A program made the translations under genes and the position numbers. The notes under the pieces were generated by a model. The model saw nothing but the letters and a program-made list of their open reading frames with translations, was not told where the DNA came from and ran no database searches. This document shows positions 1-11,454 of a stretch of 11,454 nucleotides of DNA, one piece after another (within the stretch, counting starts at the first letter, position 1; the number at the start of each line of letters is the position of its first letter). The stretch is from IMG/VR virus record IMGVR_UViG_2585427747_000005; one strand, given 5' to 3'. The stretch is from a virus. Its lineage: Duplodnaviria > Heunggongvirae > Uroviricota > Caudoviricetes.

Positions 1-1218
1 ATGAACAAACTGAGCGATACCTTGCTAAGGAAACTTCATGGTAAGCCAGCGGAGAAAAACACGTTTTATAGTGATGGCGGAAACCTGAGCGTGAAATATT
101 TAACATCAGGGAAATTGACCTGGTATTTCACATACAGGGCCGGAACGGGAAGGGAGACACGACCCGAACGCATTAAGCTGGGAAGTTATCCTGATCTGAG
201 CCTGAAAGCAGCCAGGGAAAAAGCCGCACAGTGTCGCACATGGCTGGCTGAGGGGAAAAATCCACGTCATGAGATGAATTACACCGTACAGGAAGCGTTA
301 AAGCCCGTAACGGTTGGCGATGCGCTCACCTACTGGCTTGAGTATTACGTAAAGGAAAACCGCGTGGATTATATCGCCCTGAAAAGGCGACTTAATAATC
401 ACGTAATACAGCAGATTGGTGCTATGCCGCTGGATAAATGCGAGCTACGGCACTGGCTGGCCTGTTTTGACCAGGTGGCAAAGCGAACGCCTGTTACTGC
501 CGGATTCGTGCTACAGGCGTGCAAACAGGCGCTTAAGTTCTGCCGTAGGCGGCGCTATGCAATCAGCAACGTTCTGGACGATCTGAACGTTGCGGACGTT
601 GGGAAAAAACCGGATATAAGCGAACGTGTCTTAAGTAACAAAGAACTTGGCGAATTATTGCAGGCACTGGACAAAAAAATATTCTCCCCTTACTACGTCG
701 CGTTAATCCGCCTCCTGATTGTCTTCGGAGCCAGAACGGTAGAACTGAGGTTATCGGAGATCGGGGAGTGGGATTTTACGGAAATGCTATGGACCGTTCC
801 GAAGGAGCACAGCAAAACGAAGGTCGCAATATTCCGGCCCATACCGGAAGCGATCCTGCCGTTCGTCACGCAGCTGGTGGAGCAGAACAGGCACACGGGC
901 TTATTGCTGGGGGAAGTGAAACAGGAGGCCAGCGTATCGCAGTATGGAAGATTAGCGCACTGGAGGCTTAATCACCCTCACTGGTCACTGCATGACATCC
1001 GGCGCACCTTTACAACCATGCTGAACGATTTAGGCGTTGATCCGCATGTCGTGGAGCAGCTTACAGGCCACCAGATGCCAGGAATGCAGCGAGTTTATAA
1101 TCATTCCCGTTATCTGGATGCGAAACGCAATGCGCTGGATATGTGGACGGAGCGGTTAGGGATACTGGCGGGAAAACATGAAAACGTAACCACGCTACCC
1201 GTAGCCAGAAGAAAATAA
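1..1218 (+). CDS. int: Tyrosine site-specific integrase, P4/CP4-57 family
   Basis: 405-aa ORF starting with ATG at 1; N-terminal arm-binding-type region (SDGGNLSVKY..WYFTYR); C-terminal catalytic motifs HDIRRT and VYNHSRY (HxxR and the catalytic Tyr). Confidence 0.9.
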   Translation: MNKLSDTLLRKLHGKPAEKNTFYSDGGNLSVKYLTSGKLTWYFTYRAGTGRETRPERIKLGSYPDLSLKAAREKAAQCRTWLAEGKNPRHEMNYTVQEALKPVTVGDALTYWLEYYVKENRVDYIALKRRLNNHVIQQIGAMPLDKCELRHWLACFDQVAKRTPVTAGFVLQACKQALKFCRRRRYAISNVLDDLNVADVGKKPDISERVLSNKELGELLQALDKKIFSPYYVALIRLLIVFGARTVELRLSEIGEWDFTEMLWTVPKEHSKTKVAIFRPIPEAILPFVTQLVEQNRHTGLLLGEVKQEASVSQYGRLAHWRLNHPHWSLHDIRRTFTTMLNDLGVDPHVVEQLTGHQMPGMQRVYNHSRYLDAKRNALDMWTERLGILAGKHENVTTLPVARRK

Positions 1219-1772: not shown

Positions 1773-1918
1773 TCACGCTGGCGGCACGCAGCCGCCACAC
1801 ATCAATCATCTGAACACAGAGCTATAACCATGAAGATTGAATATACGCCAGAACGTGGGCGGGGATTCGTTCGCCCTGGTGAAACTGAAAAACAACAAAA
1901 TTGGGGTTTTTCAGGTAT

Positions 1919-1948
1919 AAAAAAAGCGGCCCCGAAATGGAGCCGCCT
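1919..1948 (-). terminator. Rho-independent terminator for the leftward small-gene operon
   Basis: On the minus strand GGCGGCUCC-AUUUC-GGGGCCGC forms an 8-bp stem with a 5-nt loop, followed by a 7-U run. Confidence 0.6.
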
Positions 1949-2041
1949 TTCTGAACAGATAACCCGCTGCGCCGTTTGTGTGTGTGATCCCAAACATAAG
2001 CACGGGGATGATAGCCGTTATCAGGCTGGTGGGCAATGCAA

Positions 2042-2230
2042 TCAGTCTGGTTCAGTTCGTTGCCATACCTGCAATGAGCGCTTTTCCCTGTACTCTTTAA
2101 GGAATTGCTCAAGGGCAAAAGCACATGGCGCGAATCTTTCTGATTCATGCTCTATCTTTCTGCGCCGTCTTTTCCGTGCCGGTGATAATGTTTTGGTCAA
2201 TTCTTTATCGGTCATTGTGTTGTCCTGCAT
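2042..2230 (-). CDS. Small basic hypothetical protein (RKRRRRK tract)
   Basis: 62-aa ORF. The likelier start is the internal ATG at 2215, which has an AGGA Shine-Dalgarno; it lies 42 nt downstream of the RHH-like gene and upstream of the minus-strand terminator. Confidence 0.45.
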   Translation of the reverse strand: MQDNTMTDKELTKTLSPARKRRRRKIEHESERFAPCAFALEQFLKEYREKRSLQVWQRTEPD

Positions 2231-2272
2231 AGCAATGCGCCGTAATACCTTACACCACGGCGCTGATGGTGA

Positions 2273-2452
2273 TTACTCTGGTTCTTTGGCCTTGCGCCGC
2301 TGGCGATATTCAACTTCTCGTTTTAATGCCGCAGTAACAAATTGCCCCGTACTTTCGCCAGGCATTTTTACCGCCTCAACATTGTTCATAACTTCATGCG
2401 GAACCCTTGCCGCAACGGTTTGTGATTTTGCGTTTACCGCTTTTGTCGCCAT
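2273..2452 (-). CDS. Ribbon-helix-helix (Arc/CopG-like) DNA-binding protein, candidate repressor
   Basis: 59-aa ORF (MATKAVNAKSQTVAARVPHEVMNNVEAVKMPGESTGQFVTAALKREVEYRQRRKAKEPE), below the track cutoff; GAGGGG Shine-Dalgarno 8 nt before the ATG at 2452; strand-helix-helix pattern; adjacent to the operator triplet. Confidence 0.55.
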   Translation of the reverse strand: MATKAVNAKSQTVAARVPHEVMNNVEAVKMPGESTGQFVTAALKREVEYRQRRKAKEPE

Positions 2453-2502
2453 GTGGTGTACCCCTCATAAAAAACAAATGCAGTATGCAGGAAAAAAAAT
2501 AA

Positions 2503-2554
2503 GTGTTCAACACTTGACGTGTTTAACACCTGGGTTTAAATTGGTGTTCAACAC
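2503..2554. promoter_or_regulatory. Three copies of the 11-bp palindromic operator GTGTT-N-AACAC overlapping divergent promoter elements
   Basis: GTGTTCAACAC at 2503-2513, GTGTTTAACAC at 2519-2529, GTGTTCAACAC at 2544-2554; a TTGACG -35-like hexamer at 2514-2519 sits between the first two. Confidence 0.55.
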
Positions 2555-2651
2555 CTTGTTGGCGCAAGGTGCAGAAACGACGAAACCCGGCAGTGCGCTA
2601 ACACTAACCGGGCTTCTAACCACCAACGATAGCGAAAGTATCGAGGTAGCT

Positions 2652-2855
2652 ATGAGAAATCATACCACACACCCGCAAGGGCGGGACTCGCACGACCTGA
2701 ATAAATACATCTGGCGTTTTATCGCCCTGAGCACGGCACAACCGCGCGTGATTACCATCGAGGCCACCAGCGAACAGGAAGCGCGTCAGCAATCTCCGGC
2801 TGGCTGCGTGATGGTATTCGCTGCCCGTATTCGCCAGGGGTCACATCATGCGTAA
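2652..2855 (+). CDS. Icd-like / P4 Kil-region-like small protein
   Basis: 67 aa, GAGGT Shine-Dalgarno; motif YIWRF...ATSEQEARQQ...VFAARIRQG matches my recollection of the host cell division inhibitor Icd-like family. Confidence 0.55.
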   Translation: MRNHTTHPQGRDSHDLNKYIWRFIALSTAQPRVITIEATSEQEARQQSPAGCVMVFAARIRQGSHHA

Positions 2856-3141
2856 AAACCGCTTGCAAAAAATTATCACGGGGCTGTATGCTTCCCCCGT
2901 CGCCCACATGGCGACCGGGTTTGACAGCCTGAATACATCTGGCGGACAGCCGCCCACATCCGATAAGCGGTTTTTTTGTGTCCGTAAACCTACCCATACC
3001 CGCATTATGGCGGGGCGTAACGGGGGAGCCTTTGTGCTCGCTGGTTTCCAGATGACCAGTCTGTCAACCCTGTTACGTCTCGCCACCATGTTTGACAGCG
3101 TAGTAGCGAGACTCCTTAAAATTCATCTGGGAGCCTTTCAC

Positions 3142-4207: not shown

Positions 4208-4507
4208 ATGAAACTTAAATATTCTGGCTTAACTGCCAGTGGCAACACTCACCCTAAATTTACGCGCGGCGATATTTACCGCGACCAGTACGGCGGCACG
4301 GTAATGATTAAGGGCGTGGAAGAACGGCGCGTAACCTACCGCCGTGAAGGTTACGAATATGATTGCGTGATGCCTGTTTATCAGTTCCGGCGTGATTTTT
4401 CTCTGGTACAGACCGCGCCGCATAACGTGTCCACCAGCAACGCCAGGGCACGGGCAAACATCCAGAAGCTGAAAACCATGATTAACGGATTCAGGGGTAA
4501 AAAATGA
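4208..4507 (+). CDS. Hypothetical protein
   Basis: 99-aa ORF, GGAGA Shine-Dalgarno; stop overlaps the start of the replication gene (ATGA). Confidence 0.5.
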   Translation: MKLKYSGLTASGNTHPKFTRGDIYRDQYGGTVMIKGVEERRVTYRREGYEYDCVMPVYQFRRDFSLVQTAPHNVSTSNARARANIQKLKTMINGFRGKK

Positions 4508-6258
4508 AACTGGCACCGAACGTAAAACAGCAGTCACGCGGCATAAAACACAAAGAAACAGAAGTCATTATTTTTGCGGGTAGTGATGCCTGGTCACACG
4601 CAAAACAATGGCAGGAACATGACGCGCGTATGGCCGGAGATAATGAGCCTCCTGTGTGGCTTGGGGAGCAGCAGTTATCCGAACTGGATAAGCTGCAAAT
4701 TGTGCCGGAAGGCAGAAAATCCGTGCGCATATTCAGGGCCGGATATCTTGCGCCAGTAATGATAAAGGCGATTGGTCAGAAGCTGGCGGCGGCAGGCGTA
4801 CAGGATGCAAATTTTTACCCTGATGGTATGCACGGTCAGAAGGTGGAGAACTGGCGCGAATATCTGGCCCGTGAGCGCCAGAATCTTTCTGATGGTCTGG
4901 TCATTGAGCTTCCGGTAAAGCAAAAGGCGCAACTTTCGCAGATGGCGGACAGTGAGCGCGCGCAGCTGCTTGCCGATCGCTTTGATGGCGTTTGCGTACA
5001 TCCTGAAAGTGAAATCGTTCACGTATGGCGCGGCGGGGGATGGTGTCCGGTCAGCACAATGGAACTTAGCCGCGAAATGGTGGCGATCTATTCAGAGCAC
5101 AGGGCCACTTTCAGCAAGCGCGTAATCAATAACGCCGTGGAAGCGTTAAAAGTTATTGCCGAACCAATGGGCGAGCCGTCCGGCGATTTGTTGCCGTTCG
5201 CCAATGGTGCGCTTGACCTGAAAACGGGGGAATTTTCCCCGCACACGCCGGAGAACTGGATCACCACGCACAACGGCATTGAGTACACGCCACCAGCACC
5301 AGGGGAGAACATCCGCGATAACGCGCCAAACTTTCATAAATGGCTTGAGCACGCAGCCGGAAAAGACCCGCGCAAGATGATGCGTATATGTGCCGCGCTG
5401 TACATGATTATGGCGAACCGGTACGACTGGCAGATGTTTATTGAGGCCACCGGAGACGGCGGGAGCGGTAAAAGTACATTCACACACATAGCCAGCCTTC
5501 TGGCAGGGAAACAGAACACGGTAAGCGCTGAAATGACATCGCTTGATGATGCTGGTGGACGTGCGCAGGTTGTCGGGAGTCGTCTTATCGTCCTGGCTGA
5601 CCAGCCGAAATATACAGGCGAAGGAACGGGCATCAAGAAAATCACGGGCGGTGACCCCGTGGAAATTAACCCGAAATACGAAAAGCGTTTCACGGCGGTA
5701 ATCAGGGCGGTGGTGCTGGCGACCAACAATAACCCGATGATATTCACCGAACGGGCCGGAGGTGTGGCACGTCGTCGCGTGATTTTCCGTTTCGACAATA
5801 TCGTCAGTGAGGCCGAAAAAGACAGGGAGCTACCGGAAAAGATCGCGGCTGAAATCCCTGTCATTATCCGCCGATTGCTGGCGAACTTTACCGACCCTGA
5901 GAAGGCACGGGCTTTACTACTGGAACAGCGTGACGGTGATGAAGCTCTGGCAATAAAGCAACAGACGGATCCGGTTATTGAGTTTTGCCAGTTCCTGAAT
6001 TTTCTGGAGGAAGCGCGCGGCCTGATGATGGGGGGCGGTGGCGATTCAGTGAAGTACACGACCAGGAACAGCCTTTACCGCGTCTATCTGGCGTTTATGG
6101 CATACGCAGGCAGGAGCAAACCGCTAAACGTAAATGACTTTGGCAAGGCTATGAAGCCAGCCGCGAAAGTTTACGGACATGAATATATTACGCGGAAAGT
6201 TAAGGGAGTAACGCAGACTAACGCAATAACAACAGACGATTGCGACGCGTTTTTATAA
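4504..6258 (+). CDS. Replication initiator: P4-alpha-family primase C-terminal domain / SF3-type NTPase
   Basis: 584 aa; Walker A GDGGSGKST, Walker B-like RLIVLADQ, D5_N-like segment LPFANGALDLKTGEF; no obvious TOPRIM primase motif seen in the N-terminal third. Confidence 0.85.
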   Translation: MKLAPNVKQQSRGIKHKETEVIIFAGSDAWSHAKQWQEHDARMAGDNEPPVWLGEQQLSELDKLQIVPEGRKSVRIFRAGYLAPVMIKAIGQKLAAAGVQDANFYPDGMHGQKVENWREYLARERQNLSDGLVIELPVKQKAQLSQMADSERAQLLADRFDGVCVHPESEIVHVWRGGGWCPVSTMELSREMVAIYSEHRATFSKRVINNAVEALKVIAEPMGEPSGDLLPFANGALDLKTGEFSPHTPENWITTHNGIEYTPPAPGENIRDNAPNFHKWLEHAAGKDPRKMMRICAALYMIMANRYDWQMFIEATGDGGSGKSTFTHIASLLAGKQNTVSAEMTSLDDAGGRAQVVGSRLIVLADQPKYTGEGTGIKKITGGDPVEINPKYEKRFTAVIRAVVLATNNNPMIFTERAGGVARRRVIFRFDNIVSEAEKDRELPEKIAAEIPVIIRRLLANFTDPEKARALLLEQRDGDEALAIKQQTDPVIEFCQFLNFLEEARGLMMGGGGDSVKYTTRNSLYRVYLAFMAYAGRSKPLNVNDFGKAMKPAAKVYGHEYITRKVKGVTQTNAITTDDCDAFL

Positions 6259-6270
6259 TTTTTTGCAATG

Positions 6271-6498
6271 GCTGTCTACCCTGTCTACCTGAGTAAAGAA
6301 AAATACATTTAATTCAGTATATTAACTTAGGTAGGCAGCCTTTTTTCACTGTCTACCTACTATCTACCCTCTCTACCTGATTTTACCTGAATCAGACAGG
6401 GAGGTAGATACGGGGTAGATAGTGGATAAAAGCACTCTACCCCGCTGAAAGCCGCGCCATTACTGGCATGAGAGCCAGTAAGGTAGATAAGGTAGACA
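6271..6498. repeat. Origin of replication: iteron array (TGTCTACC and variants, both orientations)
   Basis: TGTCTACC at 6273, 6282 and 6350; ATCTACC at 6362; CTCTACC at 6371 and 6434; inverted GGTAGATA/GGTAGACA at 6403, 6414, 6482 and 6491; immediately downstream of the replication gene. Confidence 0.7.
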
Positions 6499-6546: not shown

Positions 6547-6804
6547 ATGCGCACATCAGGAAAACTTAATAATCAGAAGAAGCAGCATAACCGCGCCATT
6601 GACCTTACAGAGCACTGGCTGAGAGTGGCGATAAAAATCATCGACCGCAACACGGGGGAAGGATACGCGAAAGCACATCCCGACCTGATAAGCGCATTCA
6701 TGACCACGGCGGCGGCAAACTTTGCCACGCTGACAGAACGGGAGATTGCCGAAGCGGAACAGGTAACAACCATCAACGTTAAAACCGGAGAGGTGGAATC
6801 ATGA
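6547..6804 (+). CDS. Hypothetical protein
   Basis: 85-aa ORF with a GAGGGGG Shine-Dalgarno; stop overlaps the SSB start (ATGA). Confidence 0.5.
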   Translation: MRTSGKLNNQKKQHNRAIDLTEHWLRVAIKIIDRNTGEGYAKAHPDLISAFMTTAAANFATLTEREIAEAEQVTTINVKTGEVES

Positions 6805-7223
6805 CAGCACAGATAGCAGCTTACGGGCGGCTGGTGGACGACCCGCAGGTAAAACAGACCAGCAAGGGCACACCAATGACGCTGGCACGTATGGCGGTCC
6901 CCCTTCCGTGCAGCCAGGCAGATGACGGAACGGCGACGATGTGGTTATCCGTCCTGGCATTTGGCAGACAGGCCGAAGCACTGGAAAGGCACCGCAAGGG
7001 TGAACTCCTGAGCGTGGCGGGTAACATGCAGATCAGCCAGTGGACTGGGCAGAACGGAGAAACGCGGCAGGGCTGGCAGGTTATCGCAGACAGTGTAATC
7101 AGTGCGCGAACGGCGCGACTGGGCGGCAAAAAAGGTCAACAGGGCCAGGCTACTGACGCGCTGAACAGGGCAAAACAACAGGCGGGGAATGATGATCCGT
7201 ACGGGGATAACATACCGTTTTAA
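6801..7223 (+). CDS. ssb: Single-stranded DNA-binding protein (SSB-like)
   Basis: 140 aa; OB-fold-like conserved positions (W..V.AFG..AE, RKG, W....G..R) and an acidic C-terminal tip DDPYGDNIPF resembling the E. coli SSB D-IPF tail. Confidence 0.75.
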   Translation: MTAQIAAYGRLVDDPQVKQTSKGTPMTLARMAVPLPCSQADDGTATMWLSVLAFGRQAEALERHRKGELLSVAGNMQISQWTGQNGETRQGWQVIADSVISARTARLGGKKGQQGQATDALNRAKQQAGNDDPYGDNIPF

Positions 7224-9259: not shown

Positions 9260-9673
9260 ATGGCAACGAATGAAAGCATCATGACGCTACCGCTGGCGAG
9301 TAAATTTAAAGCCGAAGCGCGGGCAATGGCTGACAGAGGTTTATCAACCTACGAGGCCGTATATCAACTCAACAAACTGGAAGAGCAGGACAAGCCGCGC
9401 GCTGATGCGATTATGGCGCTTCATGAGCATAACGACTATCAGCCGCTGTTACGTGCAATGGCAAACGTGCCTTGTATCGATGTTGGTACGGCTAAAAGCA
9501 TCCTTAGCATGACCATAGAGCAGGAACGCCAGAAGGTTGCGCCGGAGCTTACCGCAGCCTTTGAAAACTTTATGGACATGCACAGCCCGCAAGCCGTTTC
9601 AGCTGGCATGGCATACGACGGCAGAAACCCGGGCGATGATGGCGACATCGAGCGCATACTGAAAACCATCTGA
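9260..9673 (+). CDS. Hypothetical protein, last gene of the head-module operon
   Basis: 137-aa ORF with an AGGGGG Shine-Dalgarno; acidic and helical-looking; no confident homolog recognised. Confidence 0.55.
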   Translation: MATNESIMTLPLASKFKAEARAMADRGLSTYEAVYQLNKLEEQDKPRADAIMALHEHNDYQPLLRAMANVPCIDVGTAKSILSMTIEQERQKVAPELTAAFENFMDMHSPQAVSAGMAYDGRNPGDDGDIERILKTI

Positions 9674-9835: not shown

Positions 9836-10276
9836 ATGATTGATAAAGCTTGTTTTGTAAGTCAGCAGGAAATAGCTGAACATTTCAAGGTTAACAGAAC
9901 CACTATTCGCGCATGGACCAAACAGGGGATGCCGTATCTTAATGCGGATCGCGGAAAGTCTGGCGGTTATCACATCGGGCATACATTGCTTTGGTCTTCA
10001 GGTAAAAGCCGTCTTGAGGCCATCAGATATCACGTAGAAACCAGTGCGCTGGAAAAAATTATGTTTGCCAGGCTGCTTTCATCTGAGCGTGACGAGTACT
10101 CCAGTGAAGAAACAGAACATAGATTTGATGAAGGTTTACAGATTTACGGCTACTCACCGGAAGAAGTGAGCAAAGCGCGAAATAAAATGGCCGGCTTTCT
10201 GGCTGGGTGGCGTCATGCCGTAAGCGTTCGCCGTGCCAGCATGGAACAATCAGTCGTTACAGAACAGCAAAGTTAA
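9836..10276 (+). CDS. Terminase small subunit homolog (lambda Nu1-like wHTH); Rpp-like packaging-redirection candidate
   Basis: 146 aa; VSQQEIAEHFKVNRTTIRAWTKQGMPYL parallels lambda Nu1 KKQLADIFGASIRTIQNWQEQGMPVL; no large terminase gene in the window. Confidence 0.8.
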   Translation: MIDKACFVSQQEIAEHFKVNRTTIRAWTKQGMPYLNADRGKSGGYHIGHTLLWSSGKSRLEAIRYHVETSALEKIMFARLLSSERDEYSSEETEHRFDEGLQIYGYSPEEVSKARNKMAGFLAGWRHAVSVRRASMEQSVVTEQQS

Positions 10277-10851: not shown

Positions 10852-10867
10852 CGAGTAGCGACATACC

Positions 10868-10902
10868 GTGACGGAGAGTGACAACCAGTGACACGCCGTG
10901 AC
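10868..10902. repeat. Four GTGAC motifs at exact 10-bp spacing
   Basis: GTGAC at 10868, 10878, 10888 and 10898 (cGTGACg, aGTGACa, aGTGACa, cGTGACa). Confidence 0.5.
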
Positions 10903-11307: not shown

Positions 11308-11454
11308 TTAGTTATATATAACAGCAATAAATAATGCGAGAATAAACGGCACGATGATCTCGGCGGCAAAACGGATACCGCAGAGAATAATGACCAGCAT
11401 TCCCAACATAATGACGATTTTTAGGCCATTGAGCGTGATGATCGGCTTTGCCAT
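11308..11454 (-). pseudogene. tqsA: 5' fragment of an AI-2E family transporter gene (tqsA/ydgG-like), interrupted after about 46 codons
   Basis: Minus-strand translation [45 protein letters not shown] matches my recollection of the E. coli TqsA N-terminus, then diverges (IYN, stop at 11308-11310). Confidence 0.55.

What the first reader, a model, noticed from the sequence alone, without database searches (positions are those of the whole stretch)
4504..5400. Replication protein seems to lack a recognisable primase catalytic domain
The C-terminal two thirds carry D5_N-like and Walker A/B motifs, but I could not spot TOPRIM or AEP-type primase motifs in the first roughly 290 residues. If so, priming may depend on the host, and the N-terminal region could be an origin-binding or helper-interaction domain.
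Basis: inference. Interest (0 to 1): 0.3.

Follow-up and report, generated by a model that had tools for sequence, protein, structure and literature searches.

The report
PICI replication helicase without a primase domain
The "DNA primase" of this E. coli phage satellite is really an origin-binding helicase whose expected primase domain has been replaced by a small, uncharacterised 130-residue domain, so how the satellite primes its DNA synthesis is still open.

Summary
The core observation holds. The 584-aa protein (4504-6258) has no TOPRIM, zinc-ribbon or AEP primase domain by Pfam, NCBIfam, PDB profile search, hhalign or Foldseek. The same Pfam scan finds Zn_Ribbon_Prim and Toprim_3 in the positive control, phage P4 alpha.

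D5_N covers aa 153-282, so the unassigned part is only aa 1-130, followed by a disordered linker.

Residues 141-573 are 40% identical to P4 alpha residues 324-756 (D5_N, SF3 ATPase, origin-binding winged helix). P4's 323-aa primase module is replaced by an orphan alpha/beta domain, modelled at pLDDT 90, with no Cys and only one invariant acidic residue.

This domain is rare overall (79 of 1.84 billion representatives; named members are Enterobacterales or Mannheimia). Similar DNA occurs in about 32% of complete E. coli genomes. It is fused to four different helicase types.

Origin specificity follows the C-terminal winged helix and the iterons at 6273-6498, not the N-domain.

The protein is 581/584 identical to EcCICFT073 Pri-Rep. 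Published work shows that protein plus its ori replicates a plasmid in helper-free E. coli.

Best reading: a self-loading initiator-helicase that depends on host priming, with the N-domain as a likely non-catalytic adaptor. That mechanism is inferred, not shown.

The parts
4504..6258 (+). pri-rep gene: 584-aa P4-alpha-type initiator/SF3 helicase, annotated 'DNA primase family protein'
   Evidence: ORF. 581/584 identical to EcCICFT073 Pri-Rep. aa 141-573 are 40% identical to P4 alpha aa 324-756, E 2e-111. Foldseek of the full-length model finds SaPI5 PriRep5 7OLA (E 5e-10), MPXV E5, vaccinia D5, NrS-1 and ASFV PrimPol.
4504..4893 (+). Orphan N-terminal alpha/beta domain (aa 1-130), occupying the position where P4 alpha has its Zn-ribbon/TOPRIM primase
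   Evidence: No Pfam, NCBIfam, PADLOC or PDB-sequence hit. AF2 pLDDT 90.2 with strand-helix alternation b21-25 / a29-44 / b51-53 / b73-78 / a84-96 / b101-105 / a118-129. Foldseek PDB best E 0.08. BFVD best hit is a 112-aa uncharacterised protein, E 1e-3. hhalign against the P4-type primase profile gives probability 2%. Invariant residues are E20 I23 A25 G26 A29 P50 L53 L58 G80. No Cys.
4894..4947 (+). Flexible linker (aa 131-148) and domain-swap junction
   Evidence: pLDDT 34-41 in both models. Identity to the O157:H7 DUF927-type protein is high up to about aa 140 and absent afterwards. The alignment with P4 alpha begins at aa 141.
4960..5349 (+). D5_N domain (aa 153-282)
   Evidence: Pfam PF08706, E 4e-15.
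5449..5787 (+). SF3 ATPase core: Walker A 5452-5478, Walker B 5581-5604, arginine-finger segment GGVARRRVIF 5758-5787
   Evidence: Pfam DUF5906 aa 316-417. Motif positions. Aligned to 7OLA and P4 alpha.
5962..6231 (+). C-terminal winged-helix origin-binding domain (aa 487-576)
   Evidence: Pfam Pox_D5. PDB 1ka8, the P4 origin-binding domain: phmmer E 1e-6; Foldseek TMt 0.85, rmsd 1.8 A, 29% identity.
6273..6498 (.). Replication origin: 9 iterons TVTCTACC (5 direct at 6273-6377, 4 inverted at 6403-6498), with an AT-rich stretch at about 6293-6330 after the first two
   Evidence: 9 matches, all inside this span, against 0.4 expected; 0 of 200 shuffles reach 9. Sequence and repeats. The intergenic region is 98% identical to the one downstream of EcCICFT073 pri. 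Same layout as published PICI origins (PMC6092414).
4208..4507 (+). DUF4222 gene, overlapping the pri start by ATGA; a conserved upstream neighbour
   Evidence: Pfam DUF4222, E 2e-24. Found directly upstream of D5-, DUF927- and RepA-type pri genes. 80% identical in the O157:H7 element.
6801..7223 (+). Satellite-encoded SSB with an acidic ...DNIPF tail, in the replication module
   Evidence: Translation; RefSeq annotation.

Best explanation
The gene encodes the Pri-Rep protein of an EcCICFT073-type Gram-negative PICI (a phage satellite).

Proposed mechanism:
1. It is a self-loading replication initiator and SF3 hexameric helicase of the P4-alpha/D5 type.
2. Its C-terminal winged helix binds the TVTCTACC iterons just downstream of the gene. 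The D5_N and AAA+ core then assemble and unwind the origin.
3. It is not a primase. The Zn-ribbon/TOPRIM module of P4 alpha has been replaced, at a flexible linker, by a 130-residue non-catalytic alpha/beta domain.
4. Primers are therefore most likely made by a host enzyme. This could be DnaG, recruited directly or after host DnaB is loaded on the unwound origin. RNA polymerase is another possibility.
5. The N-domain is a portable adaptor that connects whichever helicase it is fused to with a host (or satellite) replication partner.

Status of each step. Shown: the domain architecture, the absence of primase signatures, the modular swapping, and origin specificity residing in the C-terminus. 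From the literature: the replicon works without a helper phage. Inferred: host priming and the adaptor role.
For: 1. The helicase/origin-binding part is 40% identical to P4 alpha, and the N-terminal parts are unrelated. P4 alpha's primase domains are readily detected by the same Pfam scan.

2. No primase signature is found by any method tried. The N-domain has no Cys. Across 26 sequences as low as 30% identical to the query, its only invariant acidic residue is E20. The P4-type primase alignment keeps E214, D260, D262 and D290 invariant.

3. The same N-domain is fused to D5_N/DUF5906, DUF927, AAA_25 (RepA-like) and VapE ATPases. One DUF927 protein shares aa 1-140 at about 93% identity and nothing beyond that point.

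4. The family is small: 79 of 1.84 billion representatives. The named members looked up are from Escherichia, Shigella, Citrobacter, Klebsiella, Salmonella, Serratia and Mannheimia. This fits a host-specific protein-protein interface.

5. Iterons and winged helix co-vary independently of the N-domain. P4 and vB_KppS-Ant share TGTTCACC iterons and a 51%-identical winged helix, but their N-termini are unrelated. The window and Ant share the N-domain (43% identity) but have different iterons.

6. The protein is 99% identical to EcCICFT073 Pri-Rep and its ori region is 98% identical. pri-ori drives plasmid replication in helper-free DH5alpha (PMC6092414).

7. None of the ten other small ORFs of the island that were scanned shows a primase.

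8. Bebel et al. 2023 (PMC10061031) already note that D5_N/Primase_Cterm helicases are mis-annotated as primases.
Against: No experiment shows that this protein lacks primase activity.

The N-domain sits exactly where primase domains sit in related proteins. That would also fit a new kind of primase.

Weak hints of a TOPRIM relationship exist:
- phrog_1139 matches aa 43-125 at E 1e-4, in the same profile zone that P4 alpha's N-terminal primase region matches.
- Five TOPRIM/DnaG-annotated proteins appear among the top 50 BFVD hits, with probability 0.2-0.7.
- The strand-helix order is the same as in TOPRIM.

No partner protein has been identified, so the adaptor role is pure inference.

E. coli DnaG normally needs DnaB. 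How it would work with an SF3, DUF927 or VapE helicase is unknown.
Confidence: 0.6

Rival explanations
1. The N-domain is itself a primase, either a very divergent, minimal TOPRIM derivative or a new fold. On this reading Pri-Rep is a true primase-helicase like P4 alpha.
For: It occupies the position of the TOPRIM or AEP primase in P4 alpha, SaPI5 PriRep5, D5/E5 and pRN1 ORF904 (PMC2777425). Its strand-helix order matches TOPRIM. There are weak phrog_1139 and BFVD TOPRIM-annotated hits. pri-ori is self-sufficient in a helper-free host (PMC6092414). E20 is invariant, and D28 and E115 are mostly conserved.
Against: At 130 residues it is much smaller than the roughly 300-residue N-terminal primase region of P4 alpha. 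It has no Zn-binding Cys. There is no E...DxD cluster: the invariant positions in the loops right after the first and third long strands are Ala-Gly (A25-G26, A79-G80). hhalign against P4-type primases gives probability 0.6-2%. No TOPRIM or AEP structure appears among the 50 best Foldseek PDB hits, and the best E is 0.08. The conserved residues are mostly hydrophobic or small, as in a structural or binding domain.
Confidence: 0.1
2. The N-domain is not connected with priming. It has a regulatory or interference role, for example binding a helper-phage or host replication protein, or the product of the coupled DUF4222 gene. Priming comes from the host restart machinery (PriA/PriC loading DnaB, then DnaG) or from DnaG bound to SSB on the unwound origin.
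For: PICIs interfere with their helper phages (PMC6092414). The DUF4222 gene is conserved and translationally coupled directly upstream, whatever the helicase type. The domain hangs on a disordered linker. An SSB gene is kept in the replication module.
Against: The domain is always fused to the replicative helicase rather than encoded as a free protein. The short free-standing hits inspected are fragments or in-frame deletion remnants. It takes the place of a primase domain on an otherwise P4-alpha-like scaffold with the same iterons, which suggests functional substitution.
Confidence: 0.22
3. The N-domain is an origin-binding or origin-melting domain.
For: The protein is an initiator. Some SF3 initiators carry an N-terminal origin-binding domain (papillomavirus E1, SV40 LTag; established knowledge).
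Against: A P4-type origin-binding winged helix is present at the C-terminus. N-domains that are 37-44% identical accompany three different iterons: TVTCTACC, TGTTCACC and TGAACCAAC. P4 uses TGTTCACC without this domain.
Confidence: 0.04

Closest known systems
EcCICFT073 Pri-Rep (E. coli CFT073, WP_000761835.1; Fillol-Salom et al. 2018, PMC6092414)
   Same: 581/584 identical, and the ori region is 98% identical. The island has the same gene order: int, AlpA-like HTH, Icd-like, DUF4222, pri, SSB, lambda-E-type capsid, decoration protein. Published work shows it is needed for PICI replication and normal transfer, and that with its ori it maintains a plasmid without a helper phage.
   Different: The integration site differs: tqsA here, between roxA and phoQ in CFT073. 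The CFT073 copy has an extra PerC gene. In the passages of the published work that I read, the protein is treated as a 'primase homolog/replication initiator' and its N-terminal domain is not discussed.
Phage P4 alpha protein (primase-helicase-origin binding; PDB 1ka8 for the winged helix)
   Same: D5_N, SF3 ATPase and C-terminal winged helix are 40% identical over 434 residues. Both use 8-bp iterons of related form (TGTTCACC in P4, TVTCTACC here), and the double-arginine finger is shared.
   Different: P4 alpha has a 323-aa N-terminal Zn-ribbon plus TOPRIM (EGYATA) primase. Here that module is replaced by an unrelated 130-aa domain lacking the catalytic residues.
SaPI Rep / SaPI5 PriRep5 (7OLA) and SCCmec Cch2 self-loading helicases
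   Same: SF3 initiator-helicase with a C-terminal winged helix, and with iterons just downstream of the gene (PMC9371898). Best structural match.
   Different: SaPI5 carries a fused putative primase, and SaPI1 has a separate pri gene. SCC elements encode separate CcPol-MP or PolA-SSB primases (PMC10061031). No primase partner is encoded in this island.
TOPRIM domain (DnaG-type primases, RecR, OLD, topoisomerases)
   Same: Similar size and the same alternating order of four strands and three helices. The conserved loops lie right after the first and third long strands.
   Different: The Glu and DxD acidic residues are absent, with Ala-Gly in their place. There is no significant sequence, profile or Foldseek-PDB similarity.

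Membership tests
DnaG/TOPRIM-type primase (as in P4 alpha, T7 gp4) | Zinc-ribbon (CxxC...CxxC) template-recognition domain | tested here: not met
   No Cys in aa 1-130. No Zn_Ribbon_Prim hit. P4 alpha scores E 2e-18 in the same test.
DnaG/TOPRIM-type primase (as in P4 alpha, T7 gp4) | TOPRIM catalytic motifs: conserved Glu (EGYATA) and DxD | tested here: not met
   No Toprim Pfam hit in the query or in 26 family members. Family invariants are E20, A25-G26 and A79-G80, with no acidic pair. The P4-type alignment keeps E214, D260, D262 and D290 invariant. hhalign probability is 2%.
DnaG/TOPRIM-type primase (as in P4 alpha, T7 gp4) | TOPRIM fold (four-stranded parallel sheet, Rossmann-like) | tested here: inconclusive
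   The secondary-structure order is compatible. Foldseek PDB shows only generic alpha/beta hits with E>=0.08. BFVD gives weak hits to TOPRIM-annotated proteins (probability 0.2-0.7). phrog_1139 matches at E 1e-4.
Archaeo-eukaryotic primase / Prim-Pol | AEP catalytic domain (RRM-like palm with its conserved acidic and His motifs) | tested here: not met
   No Prim-Pol or AEP Pfam or NCBIfam hit. No AEP structure in the Foldseek hit list for the N-domain model. For the full-length model, the best-ranked matches are chains of about 350-460 residues of AEP-helicase proteins (7OLA, E5, D5), consistent with alignment to the helicase part.
P4-alpha/D5-type SF3 initiator-helicase (COG3378, TIGR01613 'primase_Cterm') | D5_N domain followed by an SF3 AAA+ core with Walker A, Walker B and arginine finger | tested here: met
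   Pfam D5_N and DUF5906. TIGR01613 at 109.1 bits against a cutoff of 108.7. Motifs located. 40% identity to P4 alpha.
P4-alpha/D5-type SF3 initiator-helicase (COG3378, TIGR01613 'primase_Cterm') | C-terminal winged-helix origin-binding domain and cognate iterons next to the gene | tested here: met
   PDB 1ka8 by sequence and by structure, TM 0.85. 9 iterons against 0.4 expected, all directly downstream.
Gram-negative PICI Pri-Rep (EcCICFT073 type) | Sequence identity and PICI gene context (int, alpA, pri, ori, unidirectional genes) | tested here: met
   99% identity. Context.
Gram-negative PICI Pri-Rep (EcCICFT073 type) | Drives ori-dependent replication | not testable with these tools
   Shown experimentally for the 99%-identical CFT073 protein (PMC6092414).

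The most novel reading that the evidence does not exclude
The 130-residue N-domain is a new, minimal kind of primase. It would be unrelated, or only remotely related, to TOPRIM and AEP, and able to serve four different helicase families in Enterobacterales and Pasteurellaceae satellites. A less radical version, which I put at about 0.3, is that it is the first portable module that recruits the host primase DnaG to foreign, non-DnaB helicases.
Probability: 0.08. Interest if true: 0.85.

Novelty: new variant of a known kind. Interest (0 to 1): 0.45.

Why it matters
Gram-negative PICIs are widespread. DNA similar to this N-domain region is found in about 32% of complete E. coli genomes. Their 'pri' gene is treated in the literature as the replication primase.

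If the protein has no primase, two things follow. First, the way these satellites prime DNA synthesis is unknown. Second, the small shuffled N-domain is the obvious candidate for the link to the host replisome.

Identifying its partner would explain how SF3, DUF927, RepA-like and VapE helicases can all work in the same host. It might also reveal a new way of recruiting bacterial primase.

There is a practical point too. It flags a systematic mis-annotation ('DNA primase family protein') affecting thousands of records.

Tried and rejected
1. Degenerate-TOPRIM hypothesis ('VIIFAGSDAW' read as EGxxD with E changed to A). I tested it with a P4-type primase alignment built from 14 phage and satellite sequences. 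hhalign gave probability 0.6% and 2%. Not supported, though not excluded.

2. Ferredoxin-like or Cas2-like fold. The top PDB profile hit was Cas2 at E 0.2. This is insignificant, and the strand-helix pattern fits a Rossmann-like fold better.

3. N-domain::SSB and N-domain::PerC proteins as natural fusions that might hint at function. Their sequences show in-frame deletions that start in the middle of the OB fold. They are remnants of decayed islands, not real architectures.

4. A separate primase elsewhere in the island. Ten small ORFs were scanned with Pfam and PHROGs and none was found.

5. A defence-system role. PADLOC gives no hit for the N-domain.

6. The full-length homologue search returned only proteins at 99% identity or more among those listed, so it was of no use for diversity. 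The profile search added no distant relatives.

8. The full-length AF2 model is poor in the ATPase core (pLDDT about 30 at aa 335-423) because the alignment was shallow. I used it only for domain boundaries and for the winged-helix and D5-type matches.
Full report
**What is there**

The window is an 11.4-kb island inserted in E. coli tqsA. Its gene order is integrase, AlpA-like HTH, Icd-like genes, several small ORFs, DUF4222, a 584-aa 'DNA primase family protein' (4504-6258), a small ORF, SSB, a lambda-E-type major capsid protein, a head-decoration protein and three more small ORFs.

The same architecture occurs in E. coli CFT073 between roxA and phoQ. That element is EcCICFT073, the prototype Gram-negative phage-inducible chromosomal island (PICI), described as carrying a capsid gene (c1499) and a decoration gene (c1500) (PMC6092414). 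The window's protein is 581/584 identical to the CFT073 protein, and the 288-bp intergenic region after the gene is 98% identical.

**Checking the observation**

- Pfam finds D5_N (aa 153-282), DUF5906 (the SF3 ATPase, aa 316-417) and Pox_D5 (aa 487-575). Nothing is found in aa 1-150, even at E<=1.
- NCBIfam finds only TIGR01613 'primase_Cterm' at aa 229-495. This model covers the helicase part and is the source of the 'primase' name.
- As a positive control, the same Pfam scan of P4 alpha finds Zn_Ribbon_Prim (aa 30-66) and Toprim_3 (aa 210-299).
- BLASTP aligns aa 141-573 of the window protein with aa 324-756 of P4 alpha at 40% identity (E 2e-111). The N-terminal parts do not align.

Its limits are not. 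D5_N lies within the 'first 290 residues', and the truly unassigned part is aa 1-130 plus a linker.

**The N-terminal domain**

*Distribution.*
- An exhaustive phmmer search of 1.84 billion representative proteins finds only 79 relatives.
- The named clusters I looked up come from Escherichia, Shigella, Citrobacter, Klebsiella, Salmonella, Serratia and Mannheimia.
- Within E. coli the coding sequence is common: blastn hits occur in 1729 of 5426 complete genomes, and 917 genomes have a hit covering at least 80% of the region.

*Fusion partners.* The full-length relatives carry the domain in front of four different ATPase modules: D5_N/DUF5906/Pox_D5, DUF927, AAA_25 (RepA-like) and VapE. An O157:H7 capsid-forming PICI encodes a DUF927 protein whose first ~140 residues are about 93% identical to the window protein. 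After that point the similarity stops.

*Structure.* AlphaFold2 with a 45-sequence alignment gives a confident model (pLDDT 90.2, pTM 0.84). Strands and helices alternate: b21-25, a29-44, b51-53, b73-78, a84-96, b101-105, a118-129. A disordered linker follows. The full-length model shows the same picture.

*Comparison with known folds and families.*
- Foldseek against the PDB gives only generic alpha/beta hits (best E 0.08, TM<=0.36). No TOPRIM or AEP structure is among the 50 best.
- Against BFVD the best hit is a 112-aa uncharacterised phage protein (E 1e-3, TM 0.53/0.69). Weak hits follow, five of them TOPRIM/DnaG-annotated.
- A family profile finds nothing in PDB sequences.
- 26 members give no consistent Pfam hit.
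- Profile-profile comparison with a 14-sequence P4-type Zn-ribbon/TOPRIM alignment gives probability 0.6-2%.

*Conserved residues.*
- The invariant residues are E20, I23, A25, G26, A29, P50, L53, L58 and G80.
- There is no cysteine.
- The P4-type primases keep E214, G215, D260, D262 and D290 invariant.
- The only statistical hint of a TOPRIM link is a PHROG match. phrog_1139 aligns aa 43-125 to profile positions 169-273 at E 1e-4, inside the zone (positions 28-278) that P4 alpha's N-terminal primase region matches.

I therefore treat the domain as an orphan Rossmann-like module. It may be a catalytically dead TOPRIM descendant, but that is unproven.

**Where the origin is bound**

The C-terminal ~90 residues match the P4 origin-binding winged helix, PDB 1ka8. 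The sequence match is E 1e-6. The structural match has TM 0.85 and rmsd 1.8 A.

Directly downstream lie nine TVTCTACC iterons, five in direct orientation and four inverted. Only 0.4 are expected by chance, and no other copy occurs in the window. An AT-rich stretch at about 6293-6330 follows the first two iterons. Iterons pointing in opposite directions next to an AT-rich region are what has been published for PICI and SaPI origins (PMC6092414; PMC9371898).

Comparison across relatives separates the two ends of the protein:
- P4 and the capsid-forming PICI vB_KppS-Ant share the iteron TGTTCACC and a winged helix that is 51% identical. Their N-termini are unrelated.
- The window protein and the Ant protein share the N-domain at 43% identity. 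They have different iterons and only a 35%-identical winged helix.
- A DUF927-type relative uses TGAACCAAC.

Origin specificity is therefore C-terminal.

**How it most likely works**

The protein is a self-loading initiator-helicase of the P4-alpha/D5/SaPI-Rep kind. The best structural matches are SaPI5 PriRep5 (7OLA), MPXV E5, vaccinia D5, the NrS-1 helicase and ASFV PrimPol.

In those relatives an AEP or TOPRIM primase sits N-terminal to the helicase. Here it is replaced.

Fillol-Salom et al. showed that EcCICFT073 pri plus ori maintains a temperature-sensitive plasmid in non-lysogenic DH5alpha. They also showed that AlpA-induced replication in a non-lysogen needs pri (PMC6092414). No helper primase is therefore needed. 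None of the ten other small ORFs of the island that I scanned shows a primase.

Two possibilities remain: host priming or a cryptic activity in the protein. I favour host priming for three reasons. The N-domain is small, has no zinc site and has no acidic cluster. Its conserved residues are mostly hydrophobic or small. Its narrow host range and its free exchange between helicase families fit a host-specific docking module.

That it replaces a primase on the same scaffold suggests the partner is part of the priming apparatus, with DnaG the obvious candidate. This step is inference only.

The rival readings are:
- a new or very divergent primase;
- a regulatory or interference role unrelated to priming, perhaps together with the DUF4222 gene that is always coupled upstream;
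- origin binding.

**Relation to what is known**

[quoted passage not shown] The general point is therefore known. The protein itself is a studied one.

What I did not find described is the N-terminal domain of the Gram-negative PICI Pri-Rep proteins: its replacement of the P4 primase module, and its shuffling among four helicase families. This statement rests on Pfam, NCBIfam, PHROGs (phrog_2850, 'unknown function') and the papers I read.

I rate the finding as a new variant of a known kind, of moderate interest.

Noticed in passing
window 2886-2935 and 3003-3090 (+): Rfam finds a C4 antisense RNA (72.6 bits) and its a1/b1 target (46.8 bits) inside the ORFs annotated 'Icd-like'. This is a P1/P7-type (and P4 CI-like) RNA immunity module in the PICI early region.
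   Followed up: partly
window 1-1218 and 11311-11454; L001: The island is an EcCICFT073-type PICI but is inserted in tqsA; both halves of the gene are annotated as partial. In CFT073 and in O157:H7 Wll001 the related islands lie next to roxA. The integrase module was therefore exchanged while the replication module was kept.
   Followed up: partly
window 4208-4507; L100 5705-6004; L099 40946-41245: A DUF4222 gene overlaps the pri start codon (ATGA). It is conserved directly upstream of D5-, DUF927- and RepA-type pri genes that carry the N-domain. It could be a functional partner of that domain. A DUF4222 gene also occurs in a CFT073 lambdoid prophage (L097 10192-10431).
   Followed up: partly
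proteins P0032, P0036, P0282, P0049 (other E. coli genomes): These ORFs join the N-domain to the C-terminal half of the satellite SSB, or to PerC. They are in-frame deletion remnants of decayed PICIs, and databases annotate them as 'SSB' or 'PerC family regulator'.
   Followed up: yes
L002 (LR881103, 'Escherichia phage vB_KppS-Ant') 9781-10015: This 16.5-kb 'phage' record has the gene content of a capsid-forming PICI. Its origin uses the P4 type-1 iteron TGTTCACC, and its winged helix is 51% identical to that of P4 alpha. Its N-terminus, however, is the orphan domain rather than a primase.
   Followed up: yes
window 9260-9673 and 9836-10276 (+): The 137-aa ORF belongs to phrog_1999 and weakly matches the C-terminal end of head-maturation proteases (phrog_53). 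The 146-aa ORF has an N-terminal HTH resembling small-terminase subunits (phrog_57). They may be capsid-assembly and packaging factors of the satellite.
   Followed up: no
window 10857-10902 (+): Three closely spaced direct repeats of the form AGYGACA...GTGAC lie just after the last ORF, near the right end of the island. They could be a packaging or attachment-related site.
   Followed up: no
window 1830-2855 (+): The 341-aa ORF listed mechanically here is probably not a gene. RefSeq annotates this region as an icd-like pseudogene, a YlcI/YnfO gene on the minus strand (2273-2452) and a shorter Icd-like gene (2451-2855).
   Followed up: no
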